A stretch of DNA of 64,000 nucleotides from Trypanosoma brucei (lineage: Eukaryota), in the NCBI GenBank assembly GCA_000002445.1, contig CP000066.1:416001-480000 (forward strand), written 5' to 3'. The notes under the pieces are model-generated. The model was not told where the DNA came from. It saw only the letters and a list, made by a program, of their open reading frames with translations, and did not search any database. The position numbers and the translations under genes are program-made. Below, piece after piece: positions 1 to 18,375 of this stretch (the stretch's first letter is position 1; every line of letters begins with the position of its first letter).

Positions 1-1246
1 TAGTGGCACAGGTGTCTTCGTCGAGTAATAGTAACTGCGAACCCAACTCCAAAGCCTCCATGATGTTAGCTGCTTGACTTGTGCTCCCACTGGCGTCGGC
101 TGTTACGAAGAAATTAGTGGTCTTCCCAAAAGGAAGATTGTTGATGAAGGGTGAAATATCCACGCCGTGAACCGAGCGCCTGTCCTCCGCACGGATTTTA
201 ACAGCTGTTGGGTCCACCACAACATAGGTCCGACCGTCATCAGGCACGTGGTTATATATTCCCACCTCCAGAGCGCGCAGAAGCGTTGACTTGCCGTGAA
301 AACCGCCACCCGCTATGAGGGTAAGCCCCGGTGGGAGGCCCATGCCAGTGATTGTTTTGCCACTGTGTGGTAGGGTGAATGAGCACTCAAGTGATTTGGG
401 TGATTGAAATGGCACCGCATTATCTCGCAACGGCTTGTCGCTGTTACCGGCATCACGCGGAAGAATCGCACCGTTTGCAACGAAGGCAACATACCCGGCG
501 CCCAGAAGGTTGGAGCGAAGTACCTCTTGGTCATGTACGCATATGACGTGTTGGTGGAGATCTTCTTCGTTCAGCCCGACGACGCATTGTTCAAGGAGCG
601 GGACGAGTTCATTGTAAAATATGTCGATAGCACCATGCCCATCAATACGTCGACCATGCCCCGGTAGCTTTACACGAGCAAATATCTCGATTTCTGCCTG
701 CATACCGCTTTTCTGTTGATGCGCCTTGACAAGGCCAACGGTGCTACGCTCCAGCACGTGCTGCGATGGTCGAAGCACCTGCACAGCCCCACTCGTGCGG
801 CGCGGTATACCGTTACGATACCCAGCATGGAAGGAACGAAGAATAAAATCTTCGGCGGCAACGCGTCGGCACGGGTTCGCCGCCGCCAAATCTGTGGTTT
901 GTAGCACCTTCTCTAAAGAAAATGTGCACGGGCACACCAAGCGCACCTGACTGCCAGGGGCAAAAGGATCAGACTGGATGGACAAAAATGTGCATCTCAC
1001 ATTTTCGGAAATTTGGTACGTCTCATTTGTGAGGGAGCGCAGTTCACCGTAATTGCGTCCCTCTACTGAATGAAAGAAATCCATTAGTGGTGAGAACCCT
1101 GTGGAACCGGAGGAAATGGCAGCTCCCTCATTATTTGAAGGCATGTGGCCACCGCGTTCCATTGGCGCATTGTTATGCCAATGGGAGTGTCCCCTTCCGC
1201 CACCTCTACCGCCACGGTAATGCCCGCCGTAGCCACGATGGTACAT
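1..1246 (-). CDS. Predicted ATPase of the ABC class (PF09818-like). The start codon is present; the 3' end runs off the window edge.
   Basis: Manual translation of the minus strand from the ATG at 1246 gives one uninterrupted frame down to nt 1 (about 415 aa, no stop). The ORF track only lists out-of-frame fragments (103-309, 313-534, 670-861, 1084-1389), presumably because the true ORF has no stop inside the window. Walker A-like 'LTLIAGGGFHGKSTLL' lies at about nt 300-350, and a Walker B/D-loop-like 'QLLLLDEDTCAT' at about nt 1-40. The conserved-looking N-terminal motif is 'FLSIQSDPFAPGSQVRLV'. The N-terminus is Gly/Arg/His-rich: 'MYHRGYGGHYRGGRGGGRGHSHWHNN'. Confidence 0.6.
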   Translation of the reverse strand, partial: MYHRGYGGHYRGGRGGGRGHSHWHNNAPMERGGHMPSNNEGAAISSGSTGFSPLMDFFHSVEGRNYGELRSLTNETYQISENVRCTFLSIQSDPFAPGSQVRLVCPCTFSLEKVLQTTDLAAANPCRRVAAEDFILRSFHAGYRNGIPRRTSGAVQVLRPSQHVLERSTVGLVKAHQQKSGMQAEIEIFARVKLPGHGRRIDGHGAIDIFYNELVPLLEQCVVGLNEEDLHQHVICVHDQEVLRSNLLGAGYVAFVANGAILPRDAGNSDKPLRDNAVPFQSPKSLECSFTLPHSGKTITGMGLPPGLTLIAGGGFHGKSTLLRALEVGIYNHVPDDGRTYVVVDPTAVKIRAEDRRSVHGVDISPFINNLPFGKTTNFFVTADASGSTSQAANIMEALELGSQLLLLDEDTCAT

Positions 1247-1774
1247 GAATGTGGTTGAATGATTGATCGAGAGCGCGCTTCACTAAGCCTGGGGCTAAGC
1301 ACTTTTCGGTGTGTCACAAAGCAAAAAAGAAAAAAAAAGGTACCGGAAAGAAAATAAATCGTATAAATGCGCAAACAGGGGGCCTTCACTTGTGTCCTGT
1401 GTCACCGTTTCGATACCCTTCGCTCCCCAGTAACAACTTCCTTTTCCCCTTCTCTCTCTCTCTGACACACAAACACACAAAACCAAACCGAGGTAGACAA
1501 AACAACGACAAGAGCCATTTATATCATCTTCGCCCGTTCTCTTTCAGCATCCCTTCATGCTTTGCGCGCTTAAGGGCCTCTACCGTCACGGCGTAACTGC
1601 AGCATCTCCAAAAATTAAAAGGTCAGGGCAAGTTATGCGGCACCTCAGGGATTACATAAAAGTACGGGAGCTTTCGCCGAACGCTTTCGCCGAAAACACA
1701 AGTTCATATAATGTACAGTCATAGAAACATATGTGTAGGCCAAACGTTGAAGGCAAAATGCTTAACGACGTTTA

Positions 1775-2083
1775 CTATTCGTTCTCCGACAAAACTTCTT
1801 TCATCCAACGATACGGCATATCTCCTTTCTTAATCTTTTCTTCAAATTCCTTCCGAATGGTACATGAGAGGTCCAAACCGTTGTGAATTTTATTCACGCA
1901 GCGGTCAAGACACGCCTTTTCACCAGGGTGATAAGGAATGGAGTCTTCTCCGTAATGCGTAATGCAGCGGCGCATGCAATAATTAAATCCTTCGTTGGAA
2001 ATTAACTGTTGTCGCTCCGCCAACACAACAACGTCGCGTTGGGCCATACCTGCAAGTTGCGGATTCGTTTGAGGTGGCTGCAT
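1775..2083 (-). CDS. Small Tim family protein (Tim9/Tim10/Tim8-13 type, twin Cx3C)
   Basis: The 102-aa ORF carries two Cx3C motifs, 'CMRRC' and 'CLDRC', separated by 15 residues. The size and spacing are typical of intermembrane-space small Tim chaperones. Confidence 0.6.
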   Translation of the reverse strand: MQPPQTNPQLAGMAQRDVVVLAERQQLISNEGFNYCMRRCITHYGEDSIPYHPGEKACLDRCVNKIHNGLDLSCTIRKEFEEKIKKGDMPYRWMKEVLSENE

Positions 2084-3799: not shown

Positions 3800-5791
3800 C
3801 TAAACAGGTGAAGTAAAAAAAGGATGACTCAGCGCTTCCTCTGCCGTTATTCGCCTAAGCGGATCGTAGTCCAACATGCGTTCACAAAGATCAAGTAGTT
3901 TTGGAAAGGGCCCCAGAACCTCTCGGAGTTTTGGACGTGAGGCCACATAATAAATATCTTCTATTGTATCATTGTATCGACTCTGCTGAGATGATGATGC
4001 TGACGATGGAGGTGTTATACAATCGTTCGGATCTGGCCATGCCAATTTCATGGTGTGTTTATCAAAGAATTTATCAAAGCGAGACCCTAGAGAAAATACA
4101 CGCTCCACGATAGTCTTGTTCAAAACTTCATTATTTCTTCCCTGATCCCCTTTGTTCGATATTGCCCCCTCAACGGAGTCAAACGGGCCAATGATATGCT
4201 GCAGTAGCGCCAAGTGCTCAATATCACAGCGCGGCATAAACATACAGCTTCCAGTCACTAACTCCGGAATCATGCAACCAAGAGACCACATATCTGCAGA
4301 AGTTGTCCATCCAAGTCCAAGTAACACTTCTACGCTTCGATAATGTGTGGTGTGAATGCGGTGATAAAAGGCGGGTGTCACATTGTCCAATTTACTCACG
4401 GCAGTGCACTTGGAGAGAAACTCTGCGGAACCGACATCAATAACACGTACCGTATTAACAGCAGGAAGTGGAACGTCCACCTCTGCGAGCACCTCCTCTT
4501 GAATTGTCGGCTGTGCCGTTTCATAAGCCCTGCTTGAGTGCACATCTCCTTCATCGGGTGATTCGTATTTGTATTCAAACTTCTTAATCTTCATCCGGGT
4601 TGGAAGTGTGTCACTATATTCAAAAAGAACATTTTCCGGCTTCAGGTCGGTGTGCACAATACCCCGCTGGTGCGCGTGACGCAGGAAAAGAAGGATATTA
4701 TATACGACTGCACGAACCAACTCCAGCGGCATCCCTCTGTGAGTAACCTCAACCGACCTCTCCGACATCCCCCGGAGTTTCTCGAGAGCTCCAGTCCTGC
4801 AATCATCACTACCACTACTTCTGCTGCATGTACCGGAGCCGCTCTCACTTTGTTTTCCTTCCAACCCCTTTCCAACGGATCTGTTGAGTTCCTTACGAAT
4901 GCAGGCAAGTACCTCTAACAATGAAACACCAAGCACGGGGAGTACAATCGCGTGGTGGTTATAGTGCGGTATGAACTCTACAGGAGGATTAAAGCGTCCT
5001 ATTTTCCCTTGGTATGAAGTGGCGGCAGTCGCACACATATGCCTTAAATCTTCCAACAAACACTTTTCTGCCGTCCTGCCACTTCTCCTGCGTGCACTTA
5101 CAGCACTGTAAGTCCGTTCGCTACTACTGCTCCTTCCCATGCGCCGCCTCCCGCAGCTCTCCCCGGCGGGACGACTCAGGGCAAGAAGTACTTTTATCTC
5201 ATCCAAGCACGCGCGTCTGTACGTCCCCTCATCCCGAAATATTTTTAGCGCGTAGAGTTCACCGGTGCCGCGTTTACTACAGAGGGCCACCTTAGAAAAA
5301 GTTCCCTCACCAAGCGCCCGTATGAAAAAGTATTTTCCGTAAAGAACTAAATTTGGAGTGTGTCCTTCCAGCCTCGGCAGCGGCGAGGCCTCCAAGGGCA
5401 CAAGCGGGGGTAGCCTCCTGACCATCTGGTGCCTCTCTTGGCCTTGTGACGAGACAATGCCATAATCCACACAAATGAATGGTTCCTCATCATATTTAAA
5501 CCGCTCCGCGTATTCCTCGGTGAATTTTGGGTAATGCTTGTCCCGTGTTGATGTGGAACGGGAGCTGGAACTCCCACTGGAAGTGGAAGAGTGTGAACTG
5601 TATGAAGATGGGCTTGAGGATTCCGAGTTGGATGAACGCGTTAGATGCCGGGCCCTGCTATTACTGTCAAACCGCCAGTCCCTCCCTCCACTGCTGGTGT
5701 CACTGTCCCTATAACTTTCGTGCTCCTCATCACGCCGTCGTTTGTTGCAACCATCGTCGCATCTTCGCGTTGGTTGCATCCACTCTTCCAA
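3800..5791 (-). CDS. SRPK-family (serine/arginine-rich protein-specific) CMGC kinase with large intra-kinase spacer
   Basis: Glycine loop 'LGEGTFSKV' and 'YALKIF' are followed by a long spacer insert. The catalytic loop is 'HTDLKPENVLF', with Thr replacing the usual Arg as in SRPK1. The Mg-binding motif is 'DVG' rather than DFG/DLG. The activation and P+1 region 'THYRSVEVLLG' and 'ADMWSLGCMIPELVTG' match SRPK. The segment 'EHLALLQHIIGPF' resembles the SRPK/CLK 'EDHIALIIELLG' or LAMMER segment. The N-terminus is Ser/Arg-rich. Confidence 0.7.
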   Translation of the reverse strand: MEEWMQPTRRCDDGCNKRRRDEEHESYRDSDTSSGGRDWRFDSNSRARHLTRSSNSESSSPSSYSSHSSTSSGSSSSRSTSTRDKHYPKFTEEYAERFKYDEEPFICVDYGIVSSQGQERHQMVRRLPPLVPLEASPLPRLEGHTPNLVLYGKYFFIRALGEGTFSKVALCSKRGTGELYALKIFRDEGTYRRACLDEIKVLLALSRPAGESCGRRRMGRSSSSERTYSAVSARRRSGRTAEKCLLEDLRHMCATAATSYQGKIGRFNPPVEFIPHYNHHAIVLPVLGVSLLEVLACIRKELNRSVGKGLEGKQSESGSGTCSRSSGSDDCRTGALEKLRGMSERSVEVTHRGMPLELVRAVVYNILLFLRHAHQRGIVHTDLKPENVLFEYSDTLPTRMKIKKFEYKYESPDEGDVHSSRAYETAQPTIQEEVLAEVDVPLPAVNTVRVIDVGSAEFLSKCTAVSKLDNVTPAFYHRIHTTHYRSVEVLLGLGWTTSADMWSLGCMIPELVTGSCMFMPRCDIEHLALLQHIIGPFDSVEGAISNKGDQGRNNEVLNKTIVERVFSLGSRFDKFFDKHTMKLAWPDPNDCITPPSSASSSQQSRYNDTIEDIYYVASRPKLREVLGPFPKLLDLCERMLDYDPLRRITAEEALSHPFFTSPV

Positions 5792-7165: not shown

Positions 7166-10100
7166 TCAGTTCCCCGCACCTTCACAAAGAAGGCGTGCAG
7201 CGGGGTGGTACGTAGCATGCGCAGAGTTTGGCACGCGGCCTGAGGCGGAAAGCGCAGAACGGCGATGCTCGAAACTCTTGCAAGACTCCTCGTACCTTTT
7301 CAAGTCATCACGGTACTCTTTCATACGAGCGGATGCCGCGGCGGCCGCGGCCTTCACAGCTTCCGGTGAGTATGATGCAAGAGAGACACGTGCGATAGCC
7401 GCAGCAGCATACCCAAAGACAGACGTCTGCACATCGCACCTCATGGACGCAGGAAGTTCTGTGATGTCGCTGTTACTACCAGTGTTCAATTCACCCAGGA
7501 AAGATTCCGCTTGCCGCAGAGATGTGGTTGAAGATGAGGAATAGCGAAGGGATCTTATCATCGCTGCCTCCGACATACCCGATTTCCACCTTGAGGTGTC
7601 GACACCAGCTGGGCACAACCGCAATGCCATAGCGCTCACATGGAAGGCGTTGCACTGCACCAAACCTGATTGAAAGACATACGCGGTAAACTTCACAGCG
7701 TGGTTCTCATGTGGAAGAAGGAGGAAACTGTACGATGTTTTGCCAACAAAGGTCATTAACGTTGGTGACAATAGGGAAGGTGAGTCAGACCTGTCAATGC
7801 CGGCCGCCGGCATAGTTTTCGCTTTTAGCGTAACAAGAAGTACGTGCGCGGAGAGTGAGCGACAATGCACCGTAATTGGAATGAGTGCCGCATCTGGAAG
7901 TTCCTTGGTAGACTCCACGCTATGAGGTGCCTCCACGTGGTAAAGCAAAGCCGCTTGCCGTGGATGAAGCGAACGATTCTCCACTAGAGCTTCACAAAGT
8001 TCCTCTTGCTGCAACTCATAAGCCTTGCTGCTCAGTGGCCCACCCGAGATAAGATAACTGACAGGGTCTACGAAGTGGAACAGTTGTCCACACCTGCCTG
8101 AGCCGTCTTGCAGCATCCAAGCCACTGCTACACATATGGGAGTGAAGGGTTCGCCAATGGCCACTTGTGTCACAGGGTCTACACGTGGCACCTTCTGTTG
8201 ATCACCGTCTGGCCCCTTGTCTGCGTAGAAAACAAAACCATCGTTTGCAGCGATTTCACCGAGGGTTCCGGATCCGCGAATACTTGTTCGCATAAAGTAG
8301 GTGCTCATTGCCGATCCTATGACGCTGCTCGATATCTTTGACTCCACTTGAGCACACTTATCCGGGGATGGAAGGGTCACAGTGAGGGAAATGTACTCCT
8401 CTTCCGTAAATGCGGTTGGCTGGGCATCAGGAGCAGTATCAGCAACACCGTCACTACCAACAGCAGAACCTAAACCCGCCTTTCCTCTCGATAATGTAGC
8501 CTTATCTGCGACACTGAGTGGTAAACAAAACGATCCACCACTGGGCACAACCAATCCGGCGGCATCATTTTCAAGTAACGCGCCCGTGTGGATTGCCGCA
8601 ACGTACCACCGCGGTCTGTGAATCGCTGTCATCCGCACAACGCGTAGCGGCTGCTCAGCGGTATCTGAAACGTTTGCCACCGTCAGTTGCAAGGCAGACG
8701 TCGCTGAGGCCAAGTTAACTGGTTCCAGAACAAATGACGAGAGGATAATCGTCCGTTTAACTGCAATGAGTCGCACAAAACGATGGAGTCGCACATACGG
8801 CACCGTGGCGTTGGACGGAGTTGGGGATATAGGAGTCGCCTTCACGTCCTGCCGACCTGGAGTCGTTGGAGGCCCTCCCAGATATCCCACAAGCAAGAAA
8901 ATGTTGTTTCGACAGCGAGGAGAGGCTCCATGGCCAAGTTGGCCTCGAACTGTCAGCGAAATAGACACACTTTCTTTGGGATGTAGCACCTGGGCAACAT
9001 TGAAGGTTGCCTCGGCTTCGATATTTCGCTCCAAACCAAAATCTTCAAACCACAGCACTTGTGCGTTTGTTGCGCTACGCTGAAGTGTAACGTTGTGTGC
9101 TTCCGCATGTGTGCTATTATTTGTTACCACAACGAACGTGTGAAAATACTCTCCATCCCGCAAAACAGAAGGAAGCTCGGGTTCTAACCGCATGGTAACC
9201 CACGCCTGGGGTGGTCCAACAACAATTTCTATGTTTGCGGGTGACTCCACCTCCGGTGTTGCGTTGTTCATAGCGTGCTCAAGTAACAAGCCACCACCCA
9301 TACCAGCGACATATCCCCCAAGATTGTTAGAACTACTGGTGTTGCCTTCTGTGCTTGCAGCACCGCTAGCACCCTCAGTTGCAAAATAGTAATGGCCCAA
9401 CGAACTCATAACCTCCCAAGCAAAACCGACTATAACATAAGTTCCCTCGGCCTGTGGAGTAAAGTTGAGTGTTATAGTCCTAGAAGCCCCCGCCGCAAAC
9501 TCGATCGTCTGTGACTCAGAACTCCTACAGAGTTTTGCAGGTTCATCCCTCGAAACAAATAAAAGACACATATTTTCCACGGTAAGGTGGCTTCCAATAG
9601 GATTTCTCAGTTTGACACTAACCTGAAGTGACTCCTCTTGGTTCACCGTATAGCGACGCATGCTCTTCTTGCCACTCCCATCTCTCTTACTACTTTGTCG
9701 AAACTTCGACAATTCCGCACCCCACTGCCTTGTTCCTATCGGAGAACCCGTTAATTGGTCCTTGTAATGTGAGCGCAGTTTGTCCTCCACTTTCTGCCAT
9801 TCAGTTTCCACAGCCTCGCCACCCAACTGGCACTGCTGCTGTGTCGTTATCTCATCACAATGGTACTGATTGACGCTAATTCGAACCGTATTTTCTACAA
9901 TGGCAGGTACTACCATATGAGGGCAGACGCCAATTCCAAGTTCTCCCACCACCTCCTGCTGTTTCTCCAGAAAAGTCTTCAAACTGCTAAGTGCAGTTTT
10001 TGGGTTGCTGTATTTGGGAGTGCCAAGGAGAACAGCGACAGCCATCATCGCTATGGCGCGGACGGGATTCTCGAGTTGGTGATATAGTTGAGAGAGCCCC

Positions 10101-12061
10101 ATGAAGAGATGCTCACAGATGTGCGGCCAGCTTCCGCAGCGCCCGACGCTACCATACACAAATAATGCACGCAGGTAGCAGCGTAGGGCACTTTGAAACA
10201 TATCTTCGCTGCAGTACGCGTCTCCAGCAGCGATACAGTATTTCATGTAGGTACGCACGTGTGCATGCACAGGAAAATTATTAGGCAAAGATGCTTTTAT
10301 TCTCATTCCTGCACATTGCGGTGGATTTAAGAAGAGTGCATTAGCCGCCAGCAATTCTTGTAAAACGGCAATCTGGAGCTTGCTACGACCGACCATACCG
10401 CGATGTTGGACATGAAGCAACAGCGCTGTCGTACGGTCCACCAAGGGTGGCGTTCGCGTCCGACAGAACTCGTATAAGAGTAATGCCACCCGCAGGGAAT
10501 ACACATTCATTTCACACGCATCATAATCGTTCATTGCAACCTCTAATCGGCAATCACTGTTGTTTTTTGAGGATGTTCCGCCAGCCCTCCACGGCGTTAG
10601 GCTCGAAGGCAGCAGCCGCCCCTGAAGAAAATGACATATACCGATACCTTCCTGGGCTGCTGCAATCAGCGGTTTGTTAAATGCCCTCGTTTCGACAGTA
10701 GCAAGTGCTTCTGCACGACAGAGACGGTAGAAATTTGCCGCTGCATCATAATCCGCCAACGCAAGTGAGAGATCTGCCGCCCGACGCATCTGCATCTCCA
10801 GTGATCCTGCAAGATACATCGCACGAGAGTTGCCACGTGCGGCCACCCAACTCTCTGTTTTTGATTTATTAACCTCATTCTTGTTTCGAAACCATGCTGC
10901 CATCTTTCCAAGAGTTGTCGTCCGCCTCTCATTCACTGTTGTGTTGAGAGAACGTAGCTTCCGCTCAATGAAAGTAAAAAGACACTGTGAAAGATAGTGA
11001 TGCATAACGGCACGCAAGTCCCTTACATTTTCAGGACTCAAGTAACAACCAGTCACTTTCGCCGTGCCATCGGGCCACTTGCCAAACATTGCTTGAACGC
11101 GTGGGAAGAGCAATGGCTCTGCAGCAACACGACTACTGGCGCTATCGCCACCACCACCTGCACTCGCAGGTGAGCCGCTGCGGCTTTCAAGCTGCTGCGA
11201 ATAACGAACGGCGCGGCACGCTGTATCAGAGGGAACATCCATGAAGGATGGATTTGCATCGGTCCATACTGACGGGTCCATATTTTTCACATTTTGTGGG
11301 TTGCTAATGGAATTTAGCTTGACAAGCGCACAGTTCGCGTGTCCCAAGCTTGACTGCACAGCAGCAAACATCCGATTGACTTCGTCCATACCAGGGCCTT
11401 CAGTCACATCATGCAACAGCAAGAAATGACTATGCATTTCCTCCTCCATACAAGGCATGTTACGCCAAATCTCTCCAATTTCCTGTCCCCTCTTTAACTC
11501 ATTAAATTCCTTCAAAATACCCTCCACTCCCCCTGACGCGTTTGTACTGGCCGCATAAATAAACCCCACTGGGTGATCGGTTGTATCAAAGTGGCTACAA
11601 CGCACCGAATAGACGTAATTCTGAACGAACTGTCGGTGCCAATCGGGATGTGACCGCTCCAACAGAGTCGACCCGAGTTCTGCTGACACTCGAGTGTCAG
11701 TTAATACACCACCTCCTTTCTTCATTAAACATTGCAGTGCTCGATCAAGTTGCTCTCCAAGTGCCAGTTCCACTTCCGACTGACCACAGAGCAGGTCACG
11801 AAGATGATGTAAGAGAGTCGTTTCTCCCACCTCACGTACGCATTGGGCCCGAGTCAAGCGCACTCCAAAGTTACGCACAAGAGTGGCATCTGCACGATCT
11901 GTAAGACGGGCGAAAAGATCCCCATCATACACGGCAAAAGGGCGAATCATGTTAATTAAATCCATTCCATTTCGCCGGGCCGCTTCGTCTGCGGTTCGAC
12001 TGGCCAACACCACCACAACAGGGTGTCGATATCGGCTCTCCACCCATTGCCTGAGCTCCAT
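7166..12061 (-). CDS. Large conserved protein (1631 aa). Tentatively a TRAPP-complex large subunit-like protein (TRAPPC8/9/11 family) with a TPR-like region.
   Basis: This is an uninterrupted 4.9-kb ORF. The motif 'RRAADLSLALADYDAAANFYRLCRAEAL' resembles the '[RK]xADLxFLxxxYDxAxxxY' block shared by large TRAPP subunits. The N-terminus 'HPVVVVLASRT...MIRPF' resembles the start of TRAPPC9/Trs120. The family assignment is weak. Confidence 0.35.
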   Translation of the reverse strand: MELRQWVESRYRHPVVVVLASRTADEAARRNGMDLINMIRPFAVYDGDLFARLTDRADATLVRNFGVRLTRAQCVREVGETTLLHHLRDLLCGQSEVELALGEQLDRALQCLMKKGGGVLTDTRVSAELGSTLLERSHPDWHRQFVQNYVYSVRCSHFDTTDHPVGFIYAASTNASGGVEGILKEFNELKRGQEIGEIWRNMPCMEEEMHSHFLLLHDVTEGPGMDEVNRMFAAVQSSLGHANCALVKLNSISNPQNVKNMDPSVWTDANPSFMDVPSDTACRAVRYSQQLESRSGSPASAGGGGDSASSRVAAEPLLFPRVQAMFGKWPDGTAKVTGCYLSPENVRDLRAVMHHYLSQCLFTFIERKLRSLNTTVNERRTTTLGKMAAWFRNKNEVNKSKTESWVAARGNSRAMYLAGSLEMQMRRAADLSLALADYDAAANFYRLCRAEALATVETRAFNKPLIAAAQEGIGICHFLQGRLLPSSLTPWRAGGTSSKNNSDCRLEVAMNDYDACEMNVYSLRVALLLYEFCRTRTPPLVDRTTALLLHVQHRGMVGRSKLQIAVLQELLAANALFLNPPQCAGMRIKASLPNNFPVHAHVRTYMKYCIAAGDAYCSEDMFQSALRCYLRALFVYGSVGRCGSWPHICEHLFMGLSQLYHQLENPVRAIAMMAVAVLLGTPKYSNPKTALSSLKTFLEKQQEVVGELGIGVCPHMVVPAIVENTVRISVNQYHCDEITTQQQCQLGGEAVETEWQKVEDKLRSHYKDQLTGSPIGTRQWGAELSKFRQSSKRDGSGKKSMRRYTVNQEESLQVSVKLRNPIGSHLTVENMCLLFVSRDEPAKLCRSSESQTIEFAAGASRTITLNFTPQAEGTYVIVGFAWEVMSSLGHYYFATEGASGAASTEGNTSSSNNLGGYVAGMGGGLLLEHAMNNATPEVESPANIEIVVGPPQAWVTMRLEPELPSVLRDGEYFHTFVVVTNNSTHAEAHNVTLQRSATNAQVLWFEDFGLERNIEAEATFNVAQVLHPKESVSISLTVRGQLGHGASPRCRNNIFLLVGYLGGPPTTPGRQDVKATPISPTPSNATVPYVRLHRFVRLIAVKRTIILSSFVLEPVNLASATSALQLTVANVSDTAEQPLRVVRMTAIHRPRWYVAAIHTGALLENDAAGLVVPSGGSFCLPLSVADKATLSRGKAGLGSAVGSDGVADTAPDAQPTAFTEEEYISLTVTLPSPDKCAQVESKISSSVIGSAMSTYFMRTSIRGSGTLGEIAANDGFVFYADKGPDGDQQKVPRVDPVTQVAIGEPFTPICVAVAWMLQDGSGRCGQLFHFVDPVSYLISGGPLSSKAYELQQEELCEALVENRSLHPRQAALLYHVEAPHSVESTKELPDAALIPITVHCRSLSAHVLLVTLKAKTMPAAGIDRSDSPSLLSPTLMTFVGKTSYSFLLLPHENHAVKFTAYVFQSGLVQCNAFHVSAMALRLCPAGVDTSRWKSGMSEAAMIRSLRYSSSSTTSLRQAESFLGELNTGSNSDITELPASMRCDVQTSVFGYAAAAIARVSLASYSPEAVKAAAAAASARMKEYRDDLKRYEESCKSFEHRRSALSASGRVPNSAHATYHPAARLLCEGAGN

Positions 12062-17165: not shown

Positions 17166-18375
17166 ACTTGGAGAATGGAAACAGAAGATGGCAACACCTA
17201 CAAAGCAAGCAACACCAATAATAATAGTAATAGTAATAATAATAGTAATAGTAAAAGCAATACAAAAACACAAGAAAAGAATGGTGCCGCGTAGGACCAC
17301 TCCCACCGCAGTGAAAAAAAATATATGAGGGAGGGTCAACGCGCATACGCCTTCTGCCAGTTTGATTGGTTGTTTGGGTGTTGTTTACACCGGGTTCCGT
17401 CAACTCAACGGTGATAATAATAACAAGAACGGAAAGAAAAAAGAATTTTACAGAAATAAAGGGGGAAGTCAATAATTTGGTTCATGCAAGCGCACACAAA
17501 CGCACACAAGAAAAAGGAAAAAAAAAAGATATATCCCAATACGAAAAGCAGAGACTAATCACAATGACACCAATTTAAGAAATTTCGCAGCACTTTATCA
17601 ATTATTTTGGAACCTTCTATTTTCTCCTGTTTTGGTGTATTTTGGTTAGCTCGGGGTTCCTCTTCGCATAATGTAACCCCGTGCATTTATGCAAATAAGA
17701 ATCACGCATTCACTCAGAAATACAGAATTCTTTCTCCATATCGCTTTTTTTTTTTAAATACAAAATACAAGTTTCGTCTTTCATTTTTTTTTTCCACCCT
17801 CCCCCCCCCCGCCATTCCCTTTTCATTCTTTCTTATTTATGCAATAATTTGTTACCGCGCCAACCTTTCGCGATTTTTAAAGCCTATTGCATCCTTTTGT
17901 TTTATTATATATATATATATATATATATATATTTTTTCTTTCCACTCTCTTCCTCTTCTTTTGTTTCCTCAAATACCGAATTTAACTCATCCTCCTCTCA
18001 TAATTCTCCTCCCACTGCTCCCCGCTGTTTTCCACATGTTAGTTTCTGGATCATATTTTGTTTCATATTCATACTTGCTATTATTACTGCTTCAAATAGA
18101 GCGCAAAAACTGCAGGCATTTATGTACACATACACACGGGGGGAGGGGAGAAATAGAGAAAATGTGTACGAGACAAAAGAAGCGGGGGAAAAAAAATGAA
18201 AACACAACTATTTCCTCTTCTTTTTAGTTTATTTTTATTATAATTTATTATTTTTTTTTTAAACTGAAAAAAAAGAAAAAAAGAAATTTTCTTCTTCTTT
18301 TATAAGCCTACGATTTTTCGACCAGCTTACAAGAGGCCAGCATCAGCAGGACGTTTGTGAGGGGAAAACAAGAAA

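What the first reader, a model, noticed from the sequence alone, without database searches (positions are those of the whole stretch)
1..1246. Prokaryote-type ABC-class ATPase (PF09818-like) with RGG/His-rich N-terminus, hidden from the ORF track
Hand translation shows one continuous minus-strand frame from the ATG at 1246 to the window edge. It carries 'IAGGGFHGKSTLL' (Walker A), 'LLLLDEDTCAT' (Walker B/D-loop) and 'QSDPFAP', which in my recollection characterises the 'predicted ATPase of the ABC class' family. That family is overwhelmingly bacterial or archaeal. Here it is fused to a eukaryote-style RGG/His-rich low-complexity N-terminus. The ORF track missed the gene because it has no stop inside the window. 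The biochemical role of this family is essentially unknown in any organism.
Basis: partly seen in the sequence, partly recalled or inferred. Interest (0 to 1): 0.55.

Follow-up and report, generated by a model that had tools for sequence, protein, structure and literature searches.

The report
Known trypanosome RNA-editing ATPase KRBP72/MRB1590
The open frame at the window edge is the first 415 codons of Trypanosoma brucei KRBP72 (MRB1590, Tb927.3.1590), an RNA-binding ABC-type ATPase with solved crystal structures and a demonstrated role in mitochondrial RNA editing, so it is real but already well known.

Summary
A stop-free minus-strand frame runs from ATG 1246 to the window edge (415 codons) and carries the quoted motifs. 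It hits Pfam PF09818 (E=1.9e-90) and the family's N-domain PF20446.

The fragment is 100% identical to T. brucei TREU927 XP_843753.1, which is Tb927.3.1590, MRB1590 or KRBP72. That protein has three crystal structures (4YIX, 4YIY, 4YJ1), measured ATPase and RNA-binding activity, and a demonstrated ATPase-dependent role in editing mitochondrial A6 mRNA past a stem-loop. Its role is therefore not unknown.

The family is not prokaryote-only. Homologues occur in most eukaryotic supergroups. In distance trees the kinetoplastid proteins sit inside a eukaryote-only group (bootstrap 95-99/100), so transfer from bacteria into kinetoplastids is not supported.

The Arg/Gly-rich N-terminal tail is real and is a hallmark of the eukaryotic group: 114 of 132 eukaryote-clade proteins have it, against 0 of 63 bacterial ones. 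This contradicts the published remark that it is unconserved and merely a targeting signal. All published assays used a construct that keeps the tail, so its role is untested.

Verdict: already known, low interest, with one modest open lead (the tail).

The parts
1..1246 (-). Codons 1-415 (plus one base of codon 416) of KRBP72/MRB1590 (Tb927.3.1590). The remaining 253 codons lie beyond window position 1.
   Evidence: translation; 415/415 identity to XP_843753.1 (P0121); identical CDS DNA in L001, continuing to a stop at 668 aa.
1091..1246 (-). N-terminal Arg/Gly/His-rich disordered tail, residues 1-52 (RGGRGGGRG at 11-19, RGG at 31-33).
   Evidence: for composition: 0 L/I/V/F in the first 43 residues. 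Residues 1-51 are invisible in the crystal (PMC4538832). An RG-rich tail is found in 114/132 eukaryote-clade homologues against 0/63 bacterial ones.
575..1090 (-). N-domain (Pfam ABC_N, PF20446), residues 53-224. It forms the basic RNA-binding pore of the dimer.
   Evidence: E=8.4e-46. Structure paper.
956..976 (-). QSDPFAP, residues 91-97. Phe95 stacks with Phe95' to close the pore in the closed state.
   Evidence: PMC4538832 discussion. Q91, D93 and A96 are invariant and P94 is nearly invariant (at least 90%) in the eukaryote-clade alignment, while F95 is in neither list.
647..652 (-). Arg199-Arg200, the pore arginines needed for high-affinity RNA binding in vitro and for A6 mRNA association in vivo.
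   Evidence: PMC4538832. PMC11754742.
2..568 (-). ABC-type ATPase domain (Pfam ABC_ATPase, PF09818), residues 227-415, matching profile positions 2-188 of 283. It is cut by the window edge.
   Evidence: E=1.9e-90. The full-length protein matches profile positions 2-268.
284..310 (-). Walker A / P-loop GGGFHGKST, residues 313-321 (Lys319).
   Evidence: Walker A at 315-320 in PMC4538832.
80..94 (-). ABC signature-motif equivalent ASGST, residues 385-389. Ser386 contacts the gamma-phosphate of the partner subunit's nucleotide.
   Evidence: PMC4538832: the S386E mutant loses AMP-PNP binding.
14..34 (-). Walker B LLLLDED, residues 405-411.
   Evidence: PMC4538832. D409, E410 and D411 are invariant.
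1279..1354 (-). Polypyrimidine tracts (1354-1345 and 1340-1323) followed by AG dinucleotides (1303, 1296, 1290, 1284, 1279). This is the likely trans-splicing acceptor region and short 5' UTR. There is no ATG before 1246.
   Evidence: One search shows the sequence directly. Its function as a splice signal is inferred from general trypanosomatid gene structure (my own knowledge).

Best explanation
The region encodes the N-terminal 62% of T. brucei KRBP72 (formerly MRB1590, Tb927.3.1590). KRBP72 is a soluble homodimeric ABC-fold ATPase that acts as an auxiliary factor of mitochondrial U-insertion/deletion RNA editing.

Shown by others: the two N-domains form a basic pore (Arg199/Arg200, gated by Phe95) that binds single-stranded G-rich RNA tightly with ADP bound and poorly with an ATP analogue. 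The ATPase is slow, about 6 ATP per dimer per minute. [quoted passage not shown] An ATPase-domain mutant cannot rescue this, whereas the pore-arginine mutant can. RESC12A recruits the protein to the RNA.

Inferred mechanism: nucleotide-driven opening and closing of the dimer remodels a structured G/C-rich segment of the pre-edited mRNA, or the editing complex stalled on it, so that the guide RNA can proceed.

Added here: the protein belongs to a eukaryote-wide clade of the PF20446-PF09818-PF21117 family. Members are distinguished from bacterial and archaeal ones by an Arg/Gly-rich N-terminal tail, so the gene is an old eukaryotic gene co-opted for editing and not a recent bacterial import.
For: Identity: 415/415 aa match to XP_843753.1, T. 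brucei TREU927. PDB 4YIX, 4YIY and 4YJ1 match at E as low as 4e-286. [quoted passage not shown] The gene ID is tied to KRBP72/MRB1590 in PMC11754742 and PMC12936278.

Domains: PF20446, PF09818 and PF21117 (MRB1590_C).

Mechanism from the literature: structure and pore, nucleotide binding, RNA affinities, ATPase rate, in vivo complementation and the working model.

Evolution: homologues from kinetoplastids, stramenopiles, alveolates, red and green algae, Amoebozoa and Cnidaria. The eukaryote-only clan has NJ bootstrap 99/100, and 95/100 after adding 37 more prokaryotes including 4 archaea. The RG-rich tail is in 114/132 eukaryote-clade proteins against 0/63 bacterial ones.
Against: Nothing contradicts the identification. 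On mechanism, RNA barely stimulates the ATPase and the protein did not bind the A6 hairpin in vitro. Direct unwinding is therefore unproven, and the authors do not exclude remodelling of the editing machinery or removal of stalled complexes. The trees are simple distance trees on sequences chosen by similarity to the query, and they are unrooted. They show that the kinetoplastid proteins group with other eukaryotes, but not where the eukaryotic clade came from (best attachment 12/100).
Confidence: 0.93

Rival explanations
1. One reading: a prokaryote-type ATPase of unknown role, acquired by kinetoplastids from bacteria by horizontal transfer and then fused to a eukaryote-style low-complexity tail.
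For: The family is very common in prokaryotes: at least 598 species-representative genomes across many bacterial phyla and several archaeal groups. The best bacterial hits are as similar to the query (46-47% identity) as non-kinetoplastid eukaryotic hits.
Against: The kinetoplastid proteins fall in a eukaryote-only clan with 95-99/100 bootstrap. The RG-rich tail is shared by that clan, not added in kinetoplastids. The role of this gene is experimentally established.
Confidence: 0.03
2. The N-terminal 1-52 tail is only a cleavable mitochondrial targeting sequence with no function in the mature protein, as stated in the 2015 structure paper.
For: The protein acts in the mitochondrion. The tail is basic and disordered. 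Full-length protein and the 10-668 construct bind RNA equally well. Phytomonas orthologues have largely lost the RG repeats. A profile of the pan-eukaryotic core motif does not score kinetoplastid tails above composition-matched shuffles.
Against: The first 43 residues contain no Leu, Ile, Val or Phe, and the 52-residue tail has 14 Gly, which is unlike an amphipathic presequence. RG repeats are kept in all six Trypanosoma species examined and in most eukaryotic homologues. Many of those start with the RG element at residue 2-5, and in about 18 a separate presequence-like leader precedes it. The 10-668 construct still contains RGGRGGGRG, so the tail was never actually removed in any assay.
Confidence: 0.3
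3. It is the nucleotide-binding subunit of an ABC transporter, as some database names for homologues suggest ('ABC transporter' in T. melophagium, Cylindrotheca and Nitzschia).
For: ABC-type Walker A, Walker B and signature motifs. Source names. A diatom paper treats the homologue as a transporter.
Against: Pfam finds no transmembrane or ABC-membrane domain in the full-length protein, only ABC_N, ABC_ATPase and MRB1590_C. The crystal structure is a soluble dimer with an RNA-binding pore. No transporter gene is adjacent in the window or in three bacterial loci.
Confidence: 0.01
4. It is a pseudogene, or the long open frame is an assembly artefact.
For: None beyond the missing stop, which is explained by the window edge.
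Against: 415 codons are open. There is 100% protein identity to the reference and 100% DNA identity to an independent assembly that continues to a stop. The protein has been expressed, crystallised and detected in vivo.
Confidence: 0.005

Closest known systems
T. brucei KRBP72 / MRB1590 (Tb927.3.1590; PDB 4YIX, 4YIY, 4YJ1)
   Same: It is the same protein: 415/415 residues match the TREU927 genomic product XP_843753.1.
   Different: The crystallised chains 4YIX and 4YIY, and T. b. gambiense, carry Glu at residue 242, where the window and the TREU927/T. equiperdum genomic sequence have Val. The 4YJ1-type 615-aa cluster member P0123 has Val. The window lacks codons 416-668.
Bacterial and archaeal 'predicted ATPase of the ABC class' (PF20446-PF09818-PF21117; for example PDB 5D6A and Nodosilinea P0023)
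   Same: The same three-domain architecture and invariant catalytic motifs, with about 43-50% identity over the core.
   Different: Prokaryotic proteins are about 565-575 aa, with only about 5-15 residues before the N-domain and no RG repeats (0/63). Their function is not established. No conserved gene neighbourhood was seen in three loci.
Eukaryotic homologues outside kinetoplastids (oomycetes, diatoms, coccidia, dinoflagellates, red and green algae, Balamuthia, cnidarians)
   Same: The same architecture plus an Arg/Gly-rich (or Lys/Gly-rich) N-terminal tail. They group with the kinetoplastid proteins in trees.
   Different: Most carry a recognisable core, GRG-x-YY-K-x-KYGGG (90/132), which kinetoplastid tails do not detectably retain. 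These organisms have no U-indel editing, so their function must differ. None has been characterised in the literature I could search (one search is the only mention found).
Nucleic-acid-remodelling ABC ATPases (Rad50, MutS2, eEF3, EttA)
   Same: An ABC-fold dimer whose ATP cycle drives conformational change on nucleic acid or ribonucleoprotein substrates. This is the analogy drawn by Dubey et al..
   Different: Different families with different accessory domains. KRBP72 is placed on a basal branch of the ABC superfamily according to Dubey et al., citing Krishnan et al. 2020, which I could not read.
RGG/RG-box RNA-binding proteins (for example trypanosome KRGG1, RESC13/TbRGG2)
   Same: Clustered RGG/RG repeats in a disordered segment of a protein that binds G-rich RNA.
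   Different: In KRBP72 the RNA-binding site mapped so far is the folded pore, not the tail. Whether the tail binds RNA or is methylated has not been tested.

Membership tests
Pfam PF09818 (ABC_ATPase) family with PF20446 and PF21117 | Score above the curated gathering threshold for the P-loop domain | tested here: met
   303.2 bits against a cutoff of 23.2, E=1.9e-90, for the fragment. 415.8 bits for the full-length protein.
Pfam PF09818 (ABC_ATPase) family with PF20446 and PF21117 | Three-domain architecture ABC_N, ABC_ATPase and MRB1590_C | tested here: met
   ABC_N and ABC_ATPase are in the window fragment. MRB1590_C is at residues 534-663 of the full-length protein, in a genomic record whose CDS is identical over the window's part.
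Pfam PF09818 (ABC_ATPase) family with PF20446 and PF21117 | Walker A lysine, Walker B acidic residues and signature-motif serine conserved | tested here: met
   G318, K319, T321, S386, G387, S388, D409, E410 and D411 are invariant in a 50-sequence eukaryote alignment and present in the window.
Pfam PF09818 (ABC_ATPase) family with PF20446 and PF21117 | ATP binding and hydrolysis by a homodimer | not testable with these tools
   Reported experimentally: Kd 0.9-1.3 uM for ADP and AMP-PNP, 6 ATP per dimer per minute, dimer by SEC and in the crystal (PMC4538832).
KRBP72/MRB1590 orthologue group (kinetoplastid RNA-editing auxiliary factor) | Sequence identity to Tb927.3.1590 | tested here: met
   415/415 aa match to XP_843753.1/AAZ10194.1. 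The gene ID is linked to the name in PMC11754742 and PMC12936278.
KRBP72/MRB1590 orthologue group (kinetoplastid RNA-editing auxiliary factor) | Conserved gene order with the reference locus | tested here: met
   In the T. equiperdum locus L001, a 102-aa gene and a protein-kinase gene lie upstream. In the window, the Tim10-like ORF (1775-2083) and the kinase ORF (3800-5791) lie upstream in the same order.
KRBP72/MRB1590 orthologue group (kinetoplastid RNA-editing auxiliary factor) | Pore residues Arg199/Arg200 and Phe95 | tested here: met
   Present at the published positions. R199 is invariant across the eukaryote clade.
ABC transporter nucleotide-binding subunit | Fused or adjacent transmembrane domain | tested here: not met
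   No membrane-domain Pfam hit in the full-length protein or in neighbouring ORFs. No transmembrane predictor was run. The crystal structure is a soluble dimer.
RGG/RG-box proteins | Clustered RGG/RG repeats in a disordered region | tested here: met
   RGGRGGGRG at 11-19 and RGG at 31-33. Residues 1-51 are invisible in the crystal.
RGG/RG-box proteins | The repeats contribute to nucleic-acid binding or are arginine-methylated | not testable with these tools
   All published assays used residues 10-668, which keep the repeats. The methylproteome papers were not available.
Classical N-terminal mitochondrial presequence | Amphipathic, Arg/Leu/Ala/Ser-rich N-terminus without acidic residues | tested here: inconclusive
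   By composition alone the first 43 residues contain no L/I/V/F, the 52-residue tail has 14 Gly, and E30 and E40 are present. No targeting predictor was available, and trypanosome presequences can be atypical.

The most novel reading that the evidence does not exclude
KRBP72 is the kinetoplastid representative of an ancient, eukaryote-wide, RG-tailed ABC ATPase whose ancestral job is not RNA editing. That job is probably ATP-driven handling of G-rich or structured RNA or DNA in the nucleus or cytoplasm. On this reading the RG tail is a conserved functional module, acting in a second nucleic-acid contact, arginine methylation or localisation, and is not merely a mitochondrial targeting signal.

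This would tie together several observations:
- its recurrence in telomere-chromatin purifications;
- the cytoplasmic and nucleoplasmic TrypTag signal;
- the 61,025 eCLAP peaks on nuclear-encoded RNAs;
- the finding that the pore-arginine mutant still supports A6 editing.
Probability: 0.35. Interest if true: 0.5.

Novelty: already known. Interest (0 to 1): 0.15.

Why it matters
As a genome-scan finding it matters little. The gene is annotated, crystallised and functionally studied.

Two points have some value. First, the 2015 structure paper said the protein had no significant sequence similarity to any protein, with novel N- and C-domains. In fact all three domains are shared with a very large prokaryotic and eukaryotic family, so results on KRBP72 are currently the only functional handle on that whole family.

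Testing it could clarify how KRBP72 reaches its RNA and why it also appears outside the mitochondrion.

Tried and rejected
- NCBIfam gave no hit, which is uninformative because it holds prokaryote naming models.
- tRNA and Rfam scans of the window found nothing.
- I built a profile of the pan-eukaryotic N-terminal core motif (consensus GGGRGAYYKNKYGGGGRGGRG) and tested whether the T. brucei tail is a diverged copy. It scores no better than composition-matched shuffles (-0.2 against a mean of -0.4; 96 of 200 shuffles score at least as high). I therefore do not claim motif-level homology, only shared position and composition.
- I looked for a conserved bacterial gene neighbourhood to infer the family's function. 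The three loci differ.
- I tried to locate the prokaryotic sister of the eukaryote clade. It is unresolved.
- I tried to read Krishnan et al. 2020, the ABC ATPase classification, and Lott et al. 2013, the arginine methylproteome. Neither is held. I therefore cannot say whether the RG tail has been described before, or whether it is methylated.
- Structure prediction was not run because crystal structures exist.

Full report
**1. What is in the sequence**

The minus strand of window 1-1246 translates as 415 codons without a stop, starting at ATG 1246. In-frame stops lie just upstream.

Upstream there are two polypyrimidine tracts (1354-1345 and 1340-1323), followed by AG dinucleotides at 1303, 1296, 1290, 1284 and 1279. 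There is no ATG before 1246. This is the layout expected of a trypanosomatid trans-splice acceptor and a short 5' UTR. That reading is my inference from general knowledge.

- QSDPFAP at residues 91-97
- IAGGGFHGKSTLL at residues 311-323
- LLLLDEDTCAT at residues 405-415

The first 52 residues contain 14 Gly, 6 His and 5 Arg, including RGGRGGGRG at 11-19. The ORF lister leaves the gene out because it does not list ORFs that run off the source.

**2. What it is**

Pfam gives PF09818 (ABC_ATPase) at E=1.9e-90 for residues 227-415. The match is cut at profile position 188 of 283 by the window edge. Pfam also gives PF20446 (ABC_N) at E=8.4e-46 for residues 53-224.

A search of solved structures returns 4YIX (E=4e-286), 4YIY ('kRNA Editing A6 Specific Protein') and 4YJ1, all from T. 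brucei. It also returns a bacterial homologue, 5D6A.

The large protein database returns a T. brucei protein of 668 aa. [quoted passage not shown]

Cluster members show that the window fragment is identical at 415 of 415 residues to XP_843753.1/AAZ10194.1 of T. brucei brucei TREU927, which is also T. equiperdum SCU69908.1. The crystallised chains 4YIX and 4YIY, and T. b. gambiense, have Glu rather than Val at residue 242, whereas the 615-aa 4YJ1-type cluster member has Val.

A T. equiperdum genomic locus carries an identical CDS (1246 of 1246 nt). It continues for 253 more codons to a stop, giving 668 aa with a C-terminal PF21117 'MRB1590_C' domain. The same upstream neighbours are present there: a 102-aa gene and a protein kinase. 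The refutation criterion of 'a stop or frameshift' is therefore not met.

Papers tie Tb927.3.1590 to the names MRB1590 and KRBP72.

**3. How it works (from the literature, not from my own analysis)**

Shaw et al. 2015 (PMC4538832) solved the structures and reported the following:
- The protein is a homodimer with an N-domain (1-245), an ABC-fold ATPase domain (246-482) and a C-domain (483-668). Residues 1-51 are invisible.
- The two N-domains form a basic pore.
- Walker A is at 315-320, Walker B at 407-411, and the signature equivalent at 385-389. These agree with the window sequence.
- The protein binds ADP and AMP-PNP at about 1 uM and hydrolyses about 6 ATP per dimer per minute. RNA has little effect on this rate.
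- It binds a G-rich A6 21-mer at 2.2 nM with ADP but at 72 nM with AMP-PNP. It does not bind the A6 hairpin.
- Arg199 and Arg200 are needed for tight binding.
- Closed and open dimer states were captured.

Dubey et al. 2024 (PMC11754742) reported the following:
- An ATPase-domain mutant fails to rescue, whereas the pore-arginine mutant rescues.
- RESC12A binds KRBP72 independently of RNA and promotes its RNA association.

The best-supported mechanism is therefore ATP-cycle-driven remodelling of a structured G/C-rich region of pre-edited A6 mRNA, or of the editing complex paused on it. Direct unwinding has not been demonstrated, and the authors keep alternatives open.

**4. Is it 'prokaryote-type' and horizontally acquired?**

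The family is certainly large in prokaryotes. These span cyanobacteria, Chloroflexi, spirochaetes, Clostridia, deltaproteobacteria, Bacteroidetes, Acidobacteria and others, plus Thermoplasmata, Methanomassiliicoccales and Methanomicrobiaceae.

It is also widespread in eukaryotes. A profile search returned full three-domain proteins from these groups:
- kinetoplastids
- oomycetes, diatoms, brown algae and a labyrinthulomycete
- coccidia (Toxoplasma, Neospora, Eimeria and others), Perkinsus and dinoflagellates
- red algae
- green and streptophyte algae
- Balamuthia
- cnidarians (Nematostella, Pocillopora, Porites)

I built neighbour-joining trees on about 550 core columns, with the N-terminal extension excluded.
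- With 113 sequences, one split holds all named eukaryotes and no named bacteria (99/100 bootstrap).
- With 195 sequences, the split is 132 against 63 (99/100).
- After adding 37 further prokaryotes from at least 15 phyla, including 4 archaea, the eukaryote clan still has 95/100.

Where the clan attaches among prokaryotes is unresolved (best 12/100). These are simple distance trees on similarity-selected samples and are unrooted. They are enough to reject a kinetoplastid-specific bacterial origin as the favoured reading. They are not enough to say where the eukaryotic gene came from.

**5. The N-terminal tail**

[quoted passage not shown] The sequence has no Leu, Ile, Val or Phe in its first 43 residues.

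RG/RGG repeats are present at the same place in T. congolense, T. vivax, T. cruzi, T. theileri and T. melophagium, and in several unnamed relatives. They are largely lost in Phytomonas.

Across the enlarged data set:

| Feature of the extension before the N-domain | Eukaryote clan | Bacterial group |
|---|---|---|
| Median length | 61 aa | 8 aa |
| At least three [RK]G dipeptides | 114 of 132 | 0 of 63 |
| Recognisable core G-[RK]-G-x-YY-[RK]-x-K-Y-G | 90 of 132 | 0 of 63 |

Examples of the core are Klebsormidium MSGRGAYYKAKYGGGRGRGRGR, Porites MSGRGAYYKNLYGGRGGSRGG, Phytophthora MGRGEYYRNKYGGGGRGGRG and Eimeria MSGRGAYYKAKYGGGGRGGR. Dinoflagellates carry a Lys-for-Arg variant.

In most eukaryotes the element starts within the first few residues. 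In about 18 proteins a separate leader of 20-125 residues comes first, and in several of these it resembles a presequence. An internal Met usually sits immediately before the RG element. This could mean two start codons and dual targeting, or over-extended gene models.

One caution applies. A profile of the core motif does not score the kinetoplastid tails above composition-matched shuffles. For T. brucei I therefore claim only shared position and composition.

All published biochemistry used residues 10-668, which retain RGGRGGGRG, so the tail has never been functionally separated from the pore.

**6. Signs of a non-mitochondrial pool**

- Dubey et al. report 40 eCLAP peaks on mitochondrial RNAs and 61,025 on nuclear-encoded RNAs. 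They cite a TrypTag signal in cytoplasm and nucleoplasm.
- Two papers I read list MRB1590 among candidate telomere-associated proteins. [quoted passage not shown] The latter cites Reis et al. 2018 and Weisert et al. 2024 for the original identification.
- The Leishmania orthologue co-purifies with DRBD2.
- Leeder et al. 2016 had already proposed MRB1590 as a G-quadruplex-interacting protein.

Together with the eukaryote-wide distribution in organisms that do no U-indel editing, this allows a more novel reading: an ancestral RG-tailed nucleic-acid remodeller, secondarily used in editing. It does not prove that reading. Proteomic co-purification of an abundant RNA-binding protein is weak evidence, and the mitochondrial role is the only one demonstrated.

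**7. Verdict**

The feature is real and the family assignment is right. However, the gene is a known, structurally and functionally characterised protein, and the horizontal-transfer and 'unknown function' claims do not hold. Novelty: already known. Interest is low (0.15). The residual lead is the conserved, untested RG tail and the uncharacterised eukaryotic and prokaryotic relatives.

Noticed in passing
window 1775-2083 (minus strand): A 102-aa ORF immediately upstream of KRBP72, with a twin-Cys motif and a marginal Pfam hit to the Tim10/DDP zinc finger (22.8 bits against a cutoff of 22.3, E=6.6e-5). It is probably a small Tim protein of the mitochondrial intermembrane space. The same 102-aa gene is called in the T. 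equiperdum locus L001 (2164-2472).
   Followed up: partly
window 1-64000: 20 of the 21 ORFs of at least 200 aa lie on the minus strand. The exception is a 206-aa TTG-start ORF at 17607-18227, which is probably spurious. This is consistent with one long trypanosomatid polycistronic transcription unit. No tRNA genes and no Rfam matches were found in the window.
   Followed up: partly
window 3800-5791 and 7166-12061 (minus strand): The neighbouring genes are a protein kinase (Pkinase, E=5e-31) and a 1631-aa protein with a TRAPP complex Trs85 domain (E=1.8e-81).
   Followed up: no
window 521-523 (codon 242): Val242 in the window matches the TREU927 and T. equiperdum genomic proteins. Glu242 is found in T. 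b. gambiense and in the crystallised chains 4YIX and 4YIY, although those are labelled TREU927. This is a strain polymorphism or a feature of the expression clone.
   Followed up: yes
literature compared with window residues 199-200, 267, 319 and 385-389: There are numbering and text discrepancies in the papers. Dubey 2024 describes the ATPase mutant as K267A and the RNA mutant as R198/199. In the sequence, residue 267 is Gly, the Walker A lysine is K319 and the arginines are R199/R200. Shaw 2015 writes the signature as ASGGS, whereas the sequence is ASGST.
   Followed up: partly
homologues P0021, P0026, P0035, P0064, P0112, P0126-P0128, P0144, P0176: UniRef and NCBI name many oomycete homologues, the T. 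grayi fragment and one Balamuthia homologue 'Isopentenyl-diphosphate delta-isomerase'. They contain only the ABC_N, ABC_ATPase and MRB1590_C domains, so this looks like a propagated misannotation. Others are misnamed 'ABC transporter'.
   Followed up: partly
homologues P0017, P0047, P0082, P0091, P0132, P0159, P0176, P0198 and about 10 others: A leader of 20-125 aa, Arg/Leu/Ala/Ser-rich and presequence-like in several cases, precedes an internal Met that sits directly before the RG-rich element. This suggests alternative start codons and dual targeting in some stramenopile and other lineages, or over-extended gene models.
   Followed up: partly
loci L002, L004, L005 (bacterial homologues): There is no shared neighbourhood. 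However, tRNA-modification genes are adjacent in two of the three loci: QueG next to the Bacillus homologue, and a MiaB-like radical-SAM/TRAM enzyme plus MutS next to the Desulfofundulus homologue. Three loci are too few to interpret.
   Followed up: no
window about 1440-1500 (minus strand, intergenic): Short (TG)n-like and (GA)n simple repeats (gtgtgtgtttgtgtgtg and agagagagagaga) lie in the intergenic region between the Tim10-like gene and KRBP72.
   Followed up: no
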